Source: Pseudovirgaria hyperparasitica
Lineage: Eukaryota
Assembly (NCBI GenBank): GCA_010093815.1
Contig: ML996576.1
Length of the DNA stretch: 64,000 nt
Reading direction: 5' to 3' (one strand)
Positions 10,413 to 18,190 of the stretch are shown in pieces. Position 1 is the stretch's first letter. Each line of letters starts with the position of its first letter. Under the pieces are notes generated by a model. The model saw only the letters and a program-made list of their open reading frames with translations, was not told the DNA's origin and ran no database searches. Made by a program: the position numbers and the translations under genes.

Positions 10413-12108
10413 ATGGAGTACGATACCAAAACCCGTCAGTCGATTATTCTACCTGCATTGATCATGTGCTGACAGCCTCTAGCTCAATGGCAAACCTCAG
10501 ACAAGCTATCCTTCGCGTATCCCTCTGCTCGCGACCGATGGCCTGTGATACTCGTACGCATGCTCACTAAATGGCATATGAAGACAATACAGCTGACCGA
10601 GATTAAGACCCAAGGCATCGACGACGTCCATCGCGCTGTCAGTGACGCCACCGATCCCGTAGCACAGAAAGAAGGCAAGGCAATTATCGAGCAATTGGCG
10701 AAGCTCAAGTATGAGCTCCAGCACAATAGGAATCTAACGTGGGTTGCTTCAACATCGAGGTTCAGGCCGACAGCTGATTCGATCGCAGCCCTCTTGAGGA
10801 AGACGGATATCCTGACATCGCAGAATATAACAAAGAGCTCGAGCAGCGCGGGAGTCCACAATGGTTCGACGTGACTTGGCTGTATTCCGAATGCTACATG
10901 TACAGGTGCGAGGGTCAAGAGTCTCATTACCATACGCATGCTGACGCGCACAAGGTAGACGTATGAGCAACTTCTTCAAACTTTCTACAAAGTGGAAGAA
11001 CTACGACCTCTTCGCCAAGCAGAAAATGTCTGGCTTCCATTCCTCTCGACGCGCCGTCATCGAATTGGCTACACGCTACAAGGACATTGTAACGCAGCTA
11101 GAGACCAAGCACACTTTGCAAGGTGCCAAATCGCCCGAAGAGCTGGAACAAGCCGAAAAGGTACTGTTCTCGGAGATGTGCGAGATCTGCCTATGGGGAA
11201 ATGCCACAGATCTTTCTTTGATGACCAACTTGTCATCAGTGGATTTCTCTAAGATTCAAGGAGCAGCAGCAAGGAAAGCGTCGGAGAAGAATGTACTTGC
11301 GAATGATCTTGGTGCTGCATTTGAAGCATTAAACAATGCGAAGAAAGCAAACATCCCCGACAGACGCGTGGACTTTGTTCTTGATAACGCAGGTTTTGAG
11401 CTCTTTGTCGATCTCATACTTGCTAGCTACCTTCTCGCCGCAGGTCTAGCTACCTCAGTCGTCCTCCACCCCAAGAACATCCCATGGTTCGTATCAGATG
11501 TAACACCCAAGGACTTTGGAGACCTGCTCAGTGTCCTCGCCGATCCACAAGCCTTCTATTCCTCGGAATCAGAGGACGATAAGCGCAACGGCACAAAGCC
11601 CGACCCTCTATCCGACAAAGAGATTGAGGAGATCCAATTCCTGTTCCAACACTGGGGACGTCTCCACGGCGAAGGCGGGCTCGTCATCCGTCCAAATCTG
11701 TTCTGGACCGGTCCAGGCAGCTTCTGGCGCCTGCCTAAGGTCGAACCAGAGCTCTACAATGACCTCAAGGCAAGCCAGCTGGTTATTTTTAAGGGTGACC
11801 TCAACTATCGTAAACTGACAGCCGACGTAAGTATATGTGACATGACCCCCCCAACGTAAAGGTTTTAATTGATTCATCAGGCCATGTGGGATCCCGCCAC
11901 ACCTTTCTCCGAAGCCATCGGTCCTCTGGGCCCAGGCTCGGGCCTCCGTGTGATGACACTGCGCACTTGTAAGGGCGACGTCATCTGTGGTCTGCCAAAA
12001 GGCAAGGACGAGGAGCTACGTGCCACTGATAACGATACCAGTGGTGCGAGAAAATGGGCGTGGACTGGTAAGTATGCCGTAATCCAATTCAATAATGGTA
12101 AAGCTTAA
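10413..12108 (+). CDS. Damage-control phosphatase, ARMT1/DUF89 family (yeast YMR027W-like)
   Basis: Multi-exon model MEYDTKTP / SFAYPSARDRWPVIL / ...WLYSECYMYR / CLWGNATDLSL, VLDNAGFELFVD, IFKGDLNYRKL, LRTCK; several GT-AG introns. Confidence 0.9.
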
Positions 12109-13979
12109 GTTTCAACTCCGTCTGAACGTCACCTGCATGAAACACGGATGATAGATTTTATATAGAGGCATAAACACTTAAGTGTCAGAATATGCATTTG
12201 TTTGTTGCCGTAAATTACCCAATTAGTATTAAATTGCGCCCTATTATGTGCGAACGTGGATGGATCTCAGGACGCCCGCTACAGAATAGCAAACACATAG
12301 TGATATATGTCCGAGGTAGACTCTCACGCTCAGGAGGCTTTCAGCACTCAAACCTCCCATTTCATACATGCAGCGAGCGAGACCAATTTGTCCGTGTTCT
12401 CATGAAACATATCCTACAACGCTCGCAAAAAAGGCACTAATTCAAGTCTAATCAAGAAACAGACATGCACATATGTGTATCTCTTCCACACGAATGTCTA
12501 TAATGCCACTCTGTAAAACACTCACGGGGCATCCGTAAAGCATATATATTCAGAGACCTTACCACTATCGCCAATAGTATGATCTGCTGGTCGCTACAAA
12601 AAAATAAGCAACGGAGGTTGTATACCGTAGTGGGGCATATGGTCTGAAACAATGGTATGTATTGCTGATTTCGCCTTGCTGTTCCACCCTTTGTGTAGAT
12701 AATGGTATGTCCCCATTGTTCCGCTCACCTATCTCACGTGTATGAAAATCTACTGTGAAGACAGTCCTCGATGTTAGTTGGACTTCACACTGACGTTTCA
12801 GGGGTCGTTGGGTATCATGGTTCATGCAGTCGTGTACGTGAAGTCCATGTGAAGACTTCACCAGAAGACCAGAGTAGTGGATATAGCTTCCGCGGCTGGA
12901 AGTTCGTTCGCCAACATCGTCTTCATGCAAAGCTAGTAATATTTTAAGGACACCGCAGATGCAGCTAGGGAGATGAACGGATAGATGTGCAGTCATAGTG
13001 TCGGTATCTGAAGGTCGTTAGTTAAAAGGTGTATCATAGCGCCCCTTACGTATTCAATGCTTTTACGATATGACTCTAGATCTAGATATTTGGACAAAAT
13101 AGATGCTTATGTGACACGACATGATGTGCCTTGAGGAGAATTGTCGTCGATTTTTGAAGGCTAGTGCTGTATTTGAGATCTTGAGACTGTAATTTGGAGC
13201 AGTTAGAACTCGTCTGAATCCTTTAGAGACGCTGATATTCTCCACAGTGAGCATTTACATCTTGACCCACGCCGTGGCGTTGCCCAGCAGGGGCGTAACA
13301 CTCACGACTGTGCAACTTTTGTCCTGGAAGAAGGACTGTGCAACGCGAGGCGATCATCATGCATCCTTGAAGTGTTCCTGGAAACACCGTGCATGCTGTT
13401 GTACTTTAGTGGTGCTGTCATACGTCGTTATTTCCAGTTGCAGGTAATGCGCCACTTAACTTACAGCTACAGACATGACACCTGCGATTGGGACAAGTGA
13501 TCTAAAGGAGGCTGACAGCGACCTAGTGAGATTGGAACCATATTTGATGCGCCTAACGCTGTCCTAGGGCTGGATATGTTACTGTCTACGCATGGAGAGC
13601 GCATGCTCGACAATCCACCCCTATGGTCATTTTGAGGCGCAAAGTGGTCGTAATCCAACCAAGGCTGGATGGGGAAATGGAGGTCATCCAGAATACGATA
13701 TTAACATTAACGGTGTACACGCTTCCTTATCACTCAGAGATCAATTACCAGATTCGTTGAGCCACATGCACTCTGCCGTCAACTGCAAGCAGAGAGCGTG
13801 GTGCCCGGCATCGCCGGGGTGAGGTATGATCGAGATACGAGCAATGCCTCGACGGCCCTTGTACGGTGATACTTCAAGATATTGTCACTAGGTGATAGTG
13901 AGACATTGAAGTGTAAGTGAATTTGATGAGTTCGGCGGCAAAGTGGGTCTGGGACAGATTAGTTGGCGGTGACATACAG

Positions 13980-13986
13980 ATATAAA
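13980..13986 (+). promoter_or_regulatory. Candidate TATA box of the HypX-like gene
   Basis: ATATAAA about 75 nt upstream of ATG 14058. Confidence 0.4.
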
Positions 13987-14057
13987 CATGTCTGCACTGG
14001 TAAGAGCGTTCGTCTTGTCCAAGCCCTACCTTCTTTCAGGACAAGTTTTCAGCGAAA

Positions 14058-16241
14058 ATGAGAATTCTCTTCCTCTGTACAGCTCACAACTCGCTCTCGC
14101 AGCGTCTTTACCTTGCCTTGTCACCGTCTCATGATGTTACCATCGAACTTGCCATATCCGAAGATGTCATGATCACTGCTGCTGAGCTTGCTCGACCTGA
14201 TGTCGTCATTTGTCCTTTCCTCACAGCGCGAGTACCGAAAGTCATCTATGACAATTACACTACGCTCATTGTGCATCCGGGGCCTCCTGGAGATGTTGGA
14301 CCCAGTGCATTGGATTGGGTTCTGTTGGGCGACGATGGTAGCATCGAAAACGCGACAGAGCTACTCAAAATACTCGATAATAGCCCACCTCGGCCGGGAC
14401 GCACACATTGGGGTGTCACGGTGTTGCAAGCTATCGAAGAGTTTGACGCTGGTCCTGTGTGGGCCTTCGAGCAATTTCCTCTTGACATCGATGAACGAGG
14501 CCTCACTAAGTCTAGCTTATACCGAGGACCAGTTTCTAGGGCGGCGATCTCCTCTGTTTTGGTGGCTGTTTCACGGATCCAGGAGACAGCACGAGTCTCA
14601 GCCGAAGGCCGTCCCTGTGTCTTTCACAAAGCTTCCCCAGATTTCAGGCATTTGTCAATCGAGAACCGTCTACCGTTTCAGGGTGGGAGGTTGTTCCACA
14701 GGCCACTGCTGAAGGCAGCACAGCGTAACTTCGATGTAACCAGGCACACAGCACAACAAATCTCACGACGTATCAGATGTGGCGACTCACAGCCTGGTGC
14801 TCTCAGTAACCTGTTCGGTCTTGGCTTGTACCTATACGGCGGTCTTGTCGATGAGACACCAGGTGGACCCAATTCAGGAGTTATGCCTGCCGCCTCACCT
14901 GGTACTATAGTTGGCATTCGCAACGACGCTCTATGCATCACTACATGCGATGGGAAGGGCGTGTGGATCTCACATATTCGCAGGGTCAAGAAGTCATCTG
15001 ATGTTGCCCTTTGGCCCAAAATTCCAGCAGTGTCTGGGCTCCTCGAGCTCGGACTCCTTGACATCTATGAGATCGAAAATTTATACTGGTCCGCACCGCC
15101 TGACTGGTCTAGATCGCCATTTGCTACGATGCAGGATGTCTGGGTAGAATTATCGACGTATAATGACTCGTGCTTGGTAGCATATCTGCACTGGGAGTTC
15201 TATAACGGAGCTATGTCGTCATCTCAGTGTTCGCGTCTCGTCGAAGCTATGGACTACATTCTGAGCACTTCTACACCAAAGAGGCCAATCCATGCTGTCG
15301 TGCTCATGGGTGGATCCTATTTCAGCAATGGTATAGATTTAAATGTCATAGAGGCTAGCCAAAGTCCTGCTGAGGAAAGCTGGATTAACATCAATCGTAT
15401 CGACGATGTTGTCCAGTACCTGCTACTGGAGTTCCCTCGACGGAATGTCTTGACCATCGGGGCTCTGCGAGGTAACGCCGCCGCCGGTGGTGTCGCCTTA
15501 GCTGCAGCTTGCGACGTGGTTATTGCCGGCTCCGAGATCGTGTTGAGCCCAGCATATCGAGGCGTTGGGCTGTATGGCTCAGAATACCATACGATTTCGT
15601 ACCCAGGGCGCTGTGGCGCACACAAAGCTAAAGAGATTCTGCAGTCTATGACTCCAATGAGCCCATTTGAAGCGCGTTGTGTTGGTCTTGTGGATCATGT
15701 TCTGATTGGCAGTGGCTTTGTCTTGGACGAGAAGATACGTACTCACGTACCATTCCTCTTGAAGTCTGTTTTGTCTGGACATGGGTTTTGGAAGTCTACG
15801 CAAGATCTCAGTGCAATGGCTCTTTCCAAAGCACGCACACTAGAGCTTTGCGAAATGTCCAAGGATTTCTTCAGCGCCCGATCCGTGCGTTACCATAGCC
15901 GCAGATTCAACTTCGTCAGGAAGGTGAAGAATCACCACACACCGCTTCGCTTTGCACGACATCGCCGCTTAAACAGCAGATGTCTCGACGAGGAGGAAAA
16001 GGACTCGTTCGACGATGTTCGGTACTATCAACGTCAAACCGAGTATGACTTGGTGACCAGGCTCGAGGCTGAATTGCAAAACCGGGAAGTGGATTCAAGC
16101 CAGAGCAAGGTAGAAATCTTGAAGAAGGCTGCCGAGCCACTCTTCTCATGCTACTACAAAGCGGTTGATGAAGTTTTCACTCCGCCACGATCGCCTTCAG
16201 CATCACACGAGGAGACGGCGAAGAATGAGGTGCCCATTTGA
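14058..16241 (+). CDS. hoxX: HypX/HoxX-like protein: N-terminal formyltransferase domain plus C-terminal enoyl-CoA hydratase/crotonase domain
   Basis: Intronless 727-aa ORF with MRILFLCTAHNSLSQRLY, IVHPGPPGDVGPSALDW, EEFDAGPVWA, TKSSLYR, GDSQPG, FYNGAMSSSQC, FSNGIDLNVIE, GNAAAGG..LA.A.D, LYGSEYHT. This is the HypX motif order. Confidence 0.9.
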   Translation: MRILFLCTAHNSLSQRLYLALSPSHDVTIELAISEDVMITAAELARPDVVICPFLTARVPKVIYDNYTTLIVHPGPPGDVGPSALDWVLLGDDGSIENATELLKILDNSPPRPGRTHWGVTVLQAIEEFDAGPVWAFEQFPLDIDERGLTKSSLYRGPVSRAAISSVLVAVSRIQETARVSAEGRPCVFHKASPDFRHLSIENRLPFQGGRLFHRPLLKAAQRNFDVTRHTAQQISRRIRCGDSQPGALSNLFGLGLYLYGGLVDETPGGPNSGVMPAASPGTIVGIRNDALCITTCDGKGVWISHIRRVKKSSDVALWPKIPAVSGLLELGLLDIYEIENLYWSAPPDWSRSPFATMQDVWVELSTYNDSCLVAYLHWEFYNGAMSSSQCSRLVEAMDYILSTSTPKRPIHAVVLMGGSYFSNGIDLNVIEASQSPAEESWININRIDDVVQYLLLEFPRRNVLTIGALRGNAAAGGVALAAACDVVIAGSEIVLSPAYRGVGLYGSEYHTISYPGRCGAHKAKEILQSMTPMSPFEARCVGLVDHVLIGSGFVLDEKIRTHVPFLLKSVLSGHGFWKSTQDLSAMALSKARTLELCEMSKDFFSARSVRYHSRRFNFVRKVKNHHTPLRFARHRRLNSRCLDEEEKDSFDDVRYYQRQTEYDLVTRLEAELQNREVDSSQSKVEILKKAAEPLFSCYYKAVDEVFTPPRSPSASHEETAKNEVPI

Positions 16242-16923
16242 GGACCGACTTCGCTGAAGCAGCATTTCTTTCCTGATTAATCGGCTCAGTGGTTAGATTC
16301 GGCATCCAAATTTGTCATTATGGAGTCCCTTTGGCGCTTTAGTCGATGGGAGAAGGGCTGTGGAGTCGTTTCAGAAATGTTGAGACCTGAGATGAACCGT
16401 GGAGGTTGGCATTTTTGTTCGCAGGCGTTTCACAACGGTTCATGGATTACGTCACGCACTTTACCTCATCTACGCATTTTCTACTTCGGCAAGCACAAAA
16501 CGCCTTTGTTTTACTCTAACATGTTCTTCGCCGGGATATAGATGACATGTCTCCAATCATGTGACTGGGGGTGGGTCAATTATCTGCATTTCACCAGACG
16601 ATCTCCAAGTCACAACTGCTCATAGTGTGCGACATCATGTGATATATTTAGTTGCCATAATAGTACAAAAATGATTGCCCTAAAGCGAAATCAAGGAACC
16701 TGCTAGTTTACCAAATACAATTTAATCATATCGTGAACATATTTGCTCAATAAAGCCATAAGACCAGACTCGATACACCGGTGGCTTTTGAGCTATCCGT
16801 TCTGACCGTCACATCTTTGATTCCAAATGTGCAAGCGCAACATCCTTTTTGTTGTGCAAATTCACCAAGACGGTATGTTCTAAGCAATAGCGTTAGTTCA
16901 TTTGTATCAAGGATCACCTGCAC

Positions 16924-17409
16924 CTAGCTACACACACCTCTCCCAGTCTTGGTGCTCTTCATTTTAAGGGCATATGTTGCCACTTTCTTCACTTTTCTAC
17001 AATGCTCTGGCTGAAGCTCGTTTGATAATGGACTACCTGTGGATGACCTATTCGGTCGGTCCCATTCTCGTCCGCACCAGTCCTTGCTCAGTTCCATTGC
17101 TGGTATCGACTCGGGTCTAGTTTTCGTTACTCTGGACACGCTCGTAGTATTGTAATCGGAATCCTCAACATGGACGTCATCGTCCGCGTACTGAGATACT
17201 GGAGAACCGGGCGAACTGTCAGTGCTGTCGGCCGACTCATCGGCGACAAGCTCAGGCGTAGAGTCACAAGCTGAAAATGGACTGAATCTTGAGTTTCGTG
17301 TGGCCTTTTGCTCGGTCGACGTTGTTGCGTAATATGATGTGTTTTGACGCCAACTGACCTCATCTGAGGAGCTCCAAGGGAGTGACATATTTGATTGTAA
17401 GGTAGCCAT
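16924..17409 (-). CDS. Orphan Ser/Asp-rich hypothetical protein
   Basis: 161-aa ORF with good start context (cgccATGG) and TATATA about 110 nt upstream; no recognisable domain. Confidence 0.4.
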   Translation of the reverse strand: MATLQSNMSLPWSSSDEVSWRQNTSYYATTSTEQKATRNSRFSPFSACDSTPELVADESADSTDSSPGSPVSQYADDDVHVEDSDYNTTSVSRVTKTRPESIPAMELSKDWCGREWDRPNRSSTGSPLSNELQPEHCRKVKKVATYALKMKSTKTGRGVCS

Positions 17410-18190
17410 GGCGTTTCGCGATGGATTTTGTCGGGAGGGGGCAAGACGTGATCAGTAGACTGGAAGATTCGAAGGCAAGCTTCAAGGTCGACGTAACACA
17501 TATATGAGGCCCGGCAGGTATATAAGTCTGTGTGGTTATTGTAGTTCATGCTGCTAAAGGCATCCAACTAGAACGGAGCAATCCTGTAGGCCACGAGTGA
17601 GGTACGATGAAACATAACACCTTACCTACCCGAATGAGCATAAGCCATGGGTCATATCATGCAGGAAGAGCACGATCCGTGCCACAGTTTAGTATGATAC
17701 AGCCGAACTACCAGTCTCTGAAGTGTGTGTACCTACACCATGAATGCCGATCAAACCATGGATGCACGTTGTGATCGACTGCTCGCCACGAAGCATGGAA
17801 TAGAATGATCGCCCAGGTTCGGTCCGCGGTTCCGCGGCGAATTATCTCTGCGATGGACGATTCTGGTTTCTTTTCTTACATTCCGCTGTGCTCGATGGAC
17901 GCACACAGAGTGCTGCCAATGAGCTCGTCGGAAGTTCTGTGCAAGTATAAGGCATGCATGATGTTGCCAAAGGACGTGACAAGATTTCCTTTCGAAGACG
18001 ATATTCTTGACTCACGTGATCTGCACAAATTGTACAATTTTGTGCCGAGGTTAGGATAATTTGCATAACATCATCGTCAACGAATTCCATGTATACCGTA
18101 TACCTATATATGATATTAATAATTCTACCAGGAAGACACTATGGGTAACTTCCTGACTCCAACTCGACGCTTTCAATCAAACATCGCATC

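What the first reader, a model, noticed from the sequence alone, without database searches (positions are those of the whole stretch)
14058..16241. Apparently intact HypX (CO-generating enzyme) homologue in a filamentous fungus
Seen: an intronless formyltransferase + crotonase fusion with His73 (HPG), Asp79, the Asp of DAGP and the Tyr/Glu of AYRGVGLYGSEY. Established: bacterial HypX converts N10-formyl-THF via formyl-CoA to carbon monoxide for the [NiFe]-hydrogenase active site. From memory the key Aquifex residues are His74/Asp80/Asp109/Tyr416/Glu426, which these positions appear to match. Ascomycetes are not known to have [NiFe]-hydrogenases and no hyp gene is in this window. Inference: a bacterially derived enzyme kept for another job, such as haem-independent CO production (signalling, antagonism), formyl-CoA supply or one-carbon overflow. 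Fungal 'HoxX' annotations exist, but I know of no assigned function.
Basis: partly seen in the sequence, partly recalled or inferred. Interest (0 to 1): 0.8.

Follow-up and report, generated by a model that had tools for sequence, protein, structure and literature searches.

The report
Fungal HypX carbon-monoxide enzyme, no hydrogenase
This fungus has an intact copy of HypX, the enzyme bacteria use to make carbon monoxide from a folate-bound formyl group, but no hydrogenase was found for it to serve; relatives occur in many fungi, animals, mosses and algae, so it may be an unstudied haem-independent source of carbon monoxide in eukaryotes.

Summary
Observation confirmed. Window 14058-16241 (+) is a single-copy, intronless 727-aa ORF matching Aquifex HypX along its length (E 2e-99; model pLDDT 93.5, Z 44, rmsd 1.9 A over 549 residues). 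All five catalytic residues (H73, D79, D130, Y500, E509) and most CoA contacts are kept; the five are present in 100 of 100 aligned fungal-clade proteins. Orthologue pairs give dN/dS mostly 0.04-0.12. No NiFe large subunit or HypA/C/D/E/F was found in the genome. The 'bacterial import' part is not shown: the family spans Ascomycota and Basidiomycota, and intact relatives occur in cnidarians, placozoans, amphioxus, tardigrades, rotifers, mosses, Chara and a brown alga, often fused to FolD. In unrooted trees fungi nest in no sampled bacterial group, and a fungi+animal clade is not rejected (p-AU 0.147). Best reading: a cytosolic formyl-THF decarbonylase that releases free CO (chemistry about 0.65); signal versus one-carbon overflow is unresolved; nothing was assayed. 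Fungal copies add a docked C-terminal FSCYY motif. Databases already label the family 'HoxX-like'; ten literature searches found no study of it in eukaryotes. This scan noted the same family before in two other fungal genomes.

The parts
14058..16241 (+). HypX-family gene, 727 aa, intronless, single copy
14058..14996 (+). N-terminal formyltransferase domain (residues 1-313) with triad His73 (14274-14276), Asp79 (14292-14294), Asp130 (14445-14447) and CoA-phosphate contacts Ser12, Gln15, Arg156, Ser244, Gln245
   Evidence: alignment to 6J0P, residue roles from PMC6802093, conservation
15135..15893 (+). C-terminal crotonase-fold domain (about residues 360-612) with Tyr500 (15555-15557), Glu509 (15582-15584), Asn383, Ala476, Val503; His511 stands where Aquifex has Trp
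15894..15977 (+). HypX C-terminal tail (residues 613-640), with Lys622 at the place of Aquifex Arg542; in Aquifex this tail sits at the domain interface and limits the CoA swing
15987..16013 (+). Fungal-clade acidic motif DEEExxxFD (residues 644-652)
   Evidence: 124 of 139 full-length fungal-clade proteins, 0 of 258 others
16143..16157 (+). Fungal-clade FSCYY motif (residues 696-700) on a variable linker; predicted ordered between disordered flanks, so probably docked on the core
   Evidence: 127 of 139 fungal-clade, 0 of 258 others by the pattern used; Cys in 99 of 100 aligned rows; pLDDT 87 for 691-700 against 64 and 54 either side
14030..16398 (.). Stretch covered by one 2369-nt contig of run X1, spanning the whole ORF without a gap; strand unknown
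13949..14029 (-). Minus-strand intron (GTAGGG...CTAAT...CAG) of a spliced antisense RNA whose upstream exon overlaps the 5' end of the gene
   Evidence: joint in both runs, splice signals
13415..13464 (-). Second minus-strand intron of the same antisense RNA; no ATG-started ORF over 63 aa in the spliced form
   Evidence: joint in run X1

Best explanation
The protein is a working N10-formyl-THF decarbonylase of the HypX type. [quoted passage not shown] Shown: fold, residues, selection, no hydrogenase client found. Inferred: the same chemistry as bacterial HypX; cytosolic location (no N-terminal extension); release of free CO because there is no HypCD acceptor; a gating role for the fungal C-terminal extension. 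On purpose I lean slightly to CO as a regulated effector tied to the formyl-THF pool (about 0.3 overall) over plain one-carbon disposal (about 0.25).
For: Full-length match and 1.8-1.9 A superposition on HypX. Both active sites are kept together: all five residues in 100 of 100 fungal-clade rows and in all 40 named or selected proteins checked; Cupriavidus mutants at the Tyr or Glu behave as hypX-minus (PMC6802093) and CO release in vitro is described in a review (PMC12134894). CoA-phosphate contacts are better kept in the fungal clade than in other homologues (S244 99/100, Q245 100/100, N383 100/100, R156 96/100). dN/dS 0.04-0.12 in 25 of 26 orthologue pairs. FolD, which makes the substrate, is fused to HypX in 12 of 37 long homologues scanned and in rotifer, brown-alga and dinoflagellate proteins, and lies next to hypX in bacterial loci without hyp genes. 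Bacteria also keep hypX without HypD: 6 of 8 hypX-bearing Lysobacteraceae genomes. The genome has a C1-THF-synthase-like gene that could already release formate (established pathway, recalled), which weakens a pure-overflow need.
Against: No activity was measured for any eukaryotic member. Identity to Aquifex HypX is only 38-39%. His511 replaces Trp two residues after the catalytic Glu in 100 of 100 fungal rows, and Arg9 is Ala, so the C-terminal pocket is not identical; His at this place also occurs in some bacterial and cnidarian members. The genome has a haem-oxygenase-family gene, so another CO source exists. No conserved neighbours point to a CO sensor or pathway. The Aquifex paper states its mechanism as a proposal without direct assay.
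Confidence: 0.62

Rival explanations
1. Same chemistry, but the purpose is one-carbon overflow: it regenerates THF when demethylation or glycine cleavage overloads the folate pool, and CO is waste.
For: HypX-FolD fusions and operons; formate-THF ligase near hypX in L028; DJ-1/AraC regulators beside hypX-folD in L020 and L120 (their link to methylated-amine breakdown is recalled); an MTD1-like gene beside hypX in one fungal locus, L093 (the name is recalled); no PurU found in G000.
Against: A C1-THF-synthase-like gene is present and gives a formate exit; CO is toxic and loses the carbon; the fungal folD link is 1 locus only among the 38 fungal-type loci searched; the PurU search is insensitive (it also missed the Ade8-like gene found).
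Confidence: 0.25
2. Changed chemistry: the N-terminal half still makes formyl-CoA, but the crotonase half hydrolyses it to formate or passes the formyl group to an acceptor; no CO.
For: Fixed Trp-to-His change near Glu509 and a fungal-specific docked motif with a near-invariant Cys; no hydrogenase client; no PurU found.
Against: Tyr500 and Glu509 and the cavity-neck residues Ala476 and Val/Ile503 are kept; no recurring acceptor gene nearby; simpler one-domain deformylases exist (recalled).
Confidence: 0.2
3. CO is made as a ligand for an unknown fungal metal-carbonyl cofactor, or for a hydrogenase the searches missed.
For: This is the only proven role of HypX; 61 of 80 bacterial loci carry hyp-type motifs nearby; genome searches are exon-wise and can miss genes.
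Against: Six separate families were not found while bacterial controls rang; no eukaryotic metal-carbonyl enzyme outside [FeFe]-hydrogenases is known to me (recalled).
Confidence: 0.05
4. A contaminant, a recent bacterial insertion or a decaying relic.
For: Intronless; closest characterised relatives are bacterial.
Against: Eukaryotic neighbours; GC 0.51 and GC3 0.52 within the range of ten neighbours; 51-64% identical orthologues across Pezizomycotina; fungal subgroups recovered in trees; low dN/dS.
Confidence: 0.02

Closest known systems
HypX/HoxX of Aquifex aeolicus (PDB 6J0P) and Cupriavidus necator
   Same: Two-domain architecture, fold (Z 44, rmsd 1.8-1.9 A, about 549 residues), five catalytic residues, most CoA contacts, C-terminal tail.
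   Different: No hyp or hydrogenase genes found in the genome; about 90 extra C-terminal residues with DEEE..FD and FSCYY motifs; several insertions; Arg9 to Ala, Trp428 to His; activity untested.
Fungal proteins auto-annotated 'hydrogenase maturation factor HoxX' or 'ClpP/crotonase' (e.g. Rhizodiscina, Zymoseptoria, Colletotrichum, Ceraceosorus)
   Same: Direct orthologues, 51-64% identical among the 119 best hits, one clade with SH-aLRT 100.
   Different: None of substance; no function found in print by the searches run.
'HoxX-like' proteins of Nematostella, Hydra, Trichoplax, Branchiostoma, Hypsibius, Ceratodon, Chara, Ascophyllum
   Same: All five catalytic residues in those checked (Hydra), 35-40% identity over the core.
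   Different: Separate clade (97-99); many have 43-110-residue N-terminal extensions that look like organelle presequences (by eye, no predictor run); some are FolD fusions; they lack the fungal tail motifs.
10-formyl-THF dehydrogenase (ALDH1L1) and PurU
   Same: Use N10-formyl-THF; the ALDH1L1 hydrolase domain is the structural relative of the N-terminal half and also loads a pantetheine thiol.
   Different: They end in CO2 or formate and have no crotonase domain.
Haem oxygenase
   Same: The recognised eukaryotic CO source; a family member is in this genome.
   Different: Unrelated fold; needs haem and O2.

Membership tests
HypX/HoxX | Formyltransferase domain fused to a crotonase-fold domain, matching over the full length | tested here: met
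HypX/HoxX | N-terminal triad His74/Asp80/Asp109 | tested here: met
   H73/D79/D130
HypX/HoxX | C-terminal Tyr416/Glu426 | tested here: met
   Y500/E509
HypX/HoxX | CoA-tethering residues (R9, S12, Q15, R131, S194, Q195, N306, R542) | tested here: met
   Six identical, R542 as Lys622, R9 as Ala9; the R9A-containing Aquifex variant still binds CoA
HypX/HoxX | Bound CoA and CO formation from N10-formyl-THF | not testable with these tools
   needs purified protein
[NiFe]-hydrogenase maturation system | HypA, C, D, E, F and a NiFe large subunit in the same genome | tested here: not met
   0 matches each, controls rang in 4-5 of 14 bacteria/archaea over cut-off; exon-wise search, genome may be incomplete; HypB not searched
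Bacteria-to-fungi horizontal transfer | Fungal clade nested inside a bacterial lineage with support | tested here: inconclusive
   Not nested in any of 30-37 bacterial rows; eukaryote|bacteria split 96-97; trees unrooted, fungal branch long, Aquificota and Cupriavidus not included
Functional gene | Purifying selection and transcription | tested here: met
   dN/dS in orthologue pairs (not estimable on this gene's own branch); ORF covered by contigs of two runs of one sample that show canonical spliced joints (strand unknown)

The most novel reading that the evidence does not exclude
Eukaryotes have an old, haem- and oxygen-independent CO synthase fed by folate one-carbon units, kept in many fungi, early-branching animals, bryophytes and algae and overlooked because it is labelled a hydrogenase factor. 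In fungi it is a gated cytosolic CO source; in other groups a presequence-bearing or FolD-fused form would make CO inside organelles next to respiratory haem proteins. The same family would be the missing enzyme for the serine- and folate-linked CO of siphonophore floats, now credited to haem oxygenase, and possibly for kelp-float CO.
Probability: 0.3. Interest if true: 0.9.

Novelty: new variant of a known kind. Interest (0 to 1): 0.63.

Why it matters
Endogenous CO in eukaryotes is normally credited to haem oxygenase. A conserved second route from formyl-THF would link one-carbon metabolism to gas signalling, respiration control or microbial antagonism, and would add a biological term to soil and marine CO budgets. 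[quoted passage not shown] The locus itself is an ordinary member of a wide family; the value lies in the family.

Tried and rejected
Direct search of prokaryote genomes with the fungal protein found no relative by pattern. Synteny: no tblastx match between window 1-32000 (gene masked) and 38 fungal-type loci, and matches among 14 loci only between close relatives; neighbours of 6 loci show no shared theme. CO-sensor link: Peribacillus hypX lies 59 bp before an MHYT-PAS-GGDEF-EAL gene but hypX was in only 1 of 47 and 1 of 67 related genomes, so it stays a single case; neighbours of 5 Lysobacteraceae loci were MFS or EamA transporters and secreted proteins, convergent or unlinked. Long fungal homologues (775-1184 aa) carry low-complexity tails, no extra Pfam domain. 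NCBIfam showed only below-cut-off crotonase families in the 25 rows shown of 59. No RNA holder was listed by the run search. PurU not found, but the search is insensitive. The careful IQ-TREE search did not finish in two runs, so supports are SH-aLRT only. The first structure model from 26 sequences was weak (pLDDT 77) and was replaced. The Magnaporthe paper cites hoxX only for a cloning method; 'hypX' in PMC5343134 is a different gene; PMC11879842 and PMC2216082 mention it only in a list or reference. Buerstel 2016 is not held, so its list of homologues, which may include eukaryotes, was not seen. Complex prediction was not used: there is no candidate partner.

Full report
THE GENE. Window 14058-16241 (+) is one open frame of 727 codons, the only match in the 35.4-Mb, 122-contig genome G000. 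Of 24 long window ORFs scanned, hits include ORC2, Forkhead, PIG-O and ABC1 and none is a hyp family. GC 0.51 and GC3 0.52 lie within the range of ten neighbours (GC3 0.49-0.68). It is a resident fungal gene.

IDENTITY WITH HypX. phmmer against the PDB gives Aquifex HypX at E 2.4e-99 over residues 1-639. An AlphaFold2 model from a 140-sequence alignment has pLDDT 93.5 and pTM 0.91 and superposes on HypX with Z 43-44, rmsd 1.8-2.0 A over 528-549 residues, 38-39% identity; the next entry scores 26.8. I read the abstract and parts 1-4 of 7 of the main text of PMC6802093. It names His74/Asp80/Asp109 for formyl transfer to CoA and Tyr416/Glu426 for decarbonylation, reports that Cupriavidus mutants at the Tyr or Glu are hypX-minus, lists CoA contacts, and calls its mechanism a proposal. 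Passages of the review PMC12134894 state that CO release was later shown in vitro. Mapping by eye: H73, D79, D130, Y500, E509 match; S12, Q15, R156, S244, Q245, N383, A476 are identical; R542 is K622, I419 is V503, Y108 is F129, R9 is A9, W428 is H511.

CONSERVATION AND SELECTION. Among 146 fungal-clade proteins of 480 aa or more, the five residues stand in 141-143 rows, the rest mostly gaps. In 100 fungal-clade rows that I chose for alignment A4, all five are in 100 of 100. From 50 metagenome loci I took the 17 that begin at the start codon and looked complete; all 17 give uninterrupted frames of 707-786 aa. Of their pairs, 26 have dS between 0.02 and 1.5: dN/dS is 0.04-0.12 in 25 and 0.29 in one (Nei-Gojobori; pairs not independent). 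Against the query, synonymous sites are saturated (pS 0.78-0.86) while pN is 0.22-0.35, so its own branch cannot be estimated.

EXPRESSION. Two runs of one sample hold the stretch; neither is on record as RNA. Their contigs skip five short stretches with GT..AG or CT..AC ends; four of these read as clean canonical introns in my check, and my cut for the fifth was off by one. I infer spliced RNA. One 2369-nt contig covers 14030-16398, the whole ORF plus 157 nt beyond the stop. Strand and level cannot be read. Two minus-strand introns (13949-14029, 13415-13464) define an antisense RNA overlapping the 5' end, with no ORF over 63 aa, so part of the 5' coverage may be antisense.

NO CLIENT. NiFe large subunit, HypD, HypC, HypF, HypE and HypA gave no match in G000 while bacterial controls rang. 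The same search did find a haem-oxygenase-family gene, Ade8- and Fmt1-like formyltransferases and two FolD-family genes (gene names are my reading), but the PurU model missed the Ade8-like gene, so distant or intron-split genes can be lost.

RANGE AND ORIGIN. The 119 best hits are 51-64% identical; the named ones are Dothideomycetes, Orbiliomycetes and Sordariomycetes, several labelled 'hydrogenase maturation factor HoxX'. Eight longer representatives are Basidiomycota: Tilletia, Ceraceosorus, Testicularia, Violaceomyces, Phakopsora, Cutaneotrichosporon, Kwoniella, Tremella. A second eukaryotic group holds Nematostella, Oculina, Hydra, Trichoplax, Branchiostoma, Hypsibius, Bradysia, rotifers, Ceratodon, Calypogeia, Chara, Ascophyllum, Plasmodiophora and Togula, several on multi-megabase contigs; all 40 proteins checked keep the five residues. 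Trees: FastTree, 190 rows; IQ-TREE quick with a mixture model, 63 rows; LG+G4, 84 rows. Fungi form one group (100) with the expected subgroups, other eukaryotes another (97-99), and sampled bacteria a third (96-97); in the 190-row tree the deep splits are weak (0.55-0.78). The trees are unrooted, the fungal branch is long, and Aquifex and Cupriavidus are absent. Holding fungi with four animals as one clade is not rejected (p-AU 0.147, 32 rows). So no bacterial donor is shown; one old eukaryotic origin and two separate acquisitions both remain open.

CLUES TO THE OTHER JOB. Of 80 bacterial loci, 61 have a hyp-type motif nearby (recalled regex motifs). Of the 19 others, 13 genomes have HypD elsewhere and 6 do not, several being incomplete. 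In Lysobacteraceae hypX is in 8 of 120 genomes scored and HypD in 2 of those 8. The recurring partner outside hyp clusters is FolD: fused in 12 of 37 homologues picked for length and 8 of 120 hits, adjacent in L020 and in one metagenomic lineage (L120, L121, L123-L126, L130). This ties hydrogenase-free HypX to formyl-THF supply but does not say whether CO is the aim or the waste. Fungal synteny is not conserved.

FUNGAL ADDITIONS. After the HypX tail come a DEEE..FD motif (124 of 139 full-length fungal-clade proteins), a helix and, after a linker of 45-457 residues, an FSCYY-type motif (127 of 139); neither pattern is in 258 other homologues, though unnamed P0171, sister to fungi, ends in FPCLI. 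The motif block has pLDDT 87 between flanks of 64 and 54, which suggests docking. In Aquifex the tail restrains the CoA swing and borders the proposed CO exit, so a gate is a reasonable but untested inference.

LITERATURE. Ten searches showed no study of HypX in fungi or other eukaryotes; the library lacks most subscription papers and I read no supplements, where expression or transfer tables could list the gene. PMC2974642 (passages and supporting-information legends) treats hydrogenase-linked HypX as one group in a tree that also lists Pseudomonas, Xanthomonas and Stenotrophomonas proteins. [quoted passage not shown] I did not test siphonophores; Hydra has the gene. Kelp-float CO is recalled. 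Two earlier notes of this scan report the same family in other fungi; I saw them after reaching the range result myself, and they are not independent support.

VERDICT. [quoted passage not shown] Most likely a formyl-THF decarbonylase releasing free CO (0.62). The locus is one member of a wide, auto-annotated, unstudied family, so: new variant of a known kind, interest 0.63.

Noticed in passing
window 13045-14259 (-): Spliced antisense RNA with two canonical introns overlapping the 5' end of the hypX gene head to head; no long ORF.
   Followed up: partly
window 16573-17951 (-): Convergent spliced gene (intron 16880-16937) giving a 180-aa acidic, Ser/Thr-rich ORF; its unspliced 161-aa part has no Pfam match.
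   Followed up: partly
window 10963-12210 (+): ARMT1-like damage-control phosphatase; its contig has about 100 times the word depth of the hypX contig in the same runs, a poor measure of level.
   Followed up: no
proteins P0197, P0173, P0352, P0369, P0428, P0188, P0315: Intact HypX-like proteins in cnidarians, placozoan, amphioxus, tardigrade, moss and brown alga, many with presequence-like N-termini or FolD fusions; candidate for serine-derived float CO in siphonophores.
   Followed up: partly
L060:8001-12156: Peribacillus hypX sits 59 bp upstream of an MHYT-PAS-GGDEF-EAL gene in a genome where HypD was not found; single case.
   Followed up: yes
proteins P0158, P0227: HypX fused to a hemerythrin domain, and to a response-regulator receiver domain.
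   Followed up: no
L120:3117-8483, L020:5119-9812: hypX-folD operons beside DJ-1/AraC regulators with no hyp motif in the locus.
   Followed up: partly
L093:13582-14385: Fungal MTD1-like methylene-THF dehydrogenase directly downstream of a fungal hypX orthologue; not seen in other fungal loci.
   Followed up: yes
protein P0171: Unnamed Asn/Ile/Lys-rich HypX, sister to the fungal clade, ending in a variant of the fungal Cys motif; may be an early-diverging lineage.
   Followed up: partly
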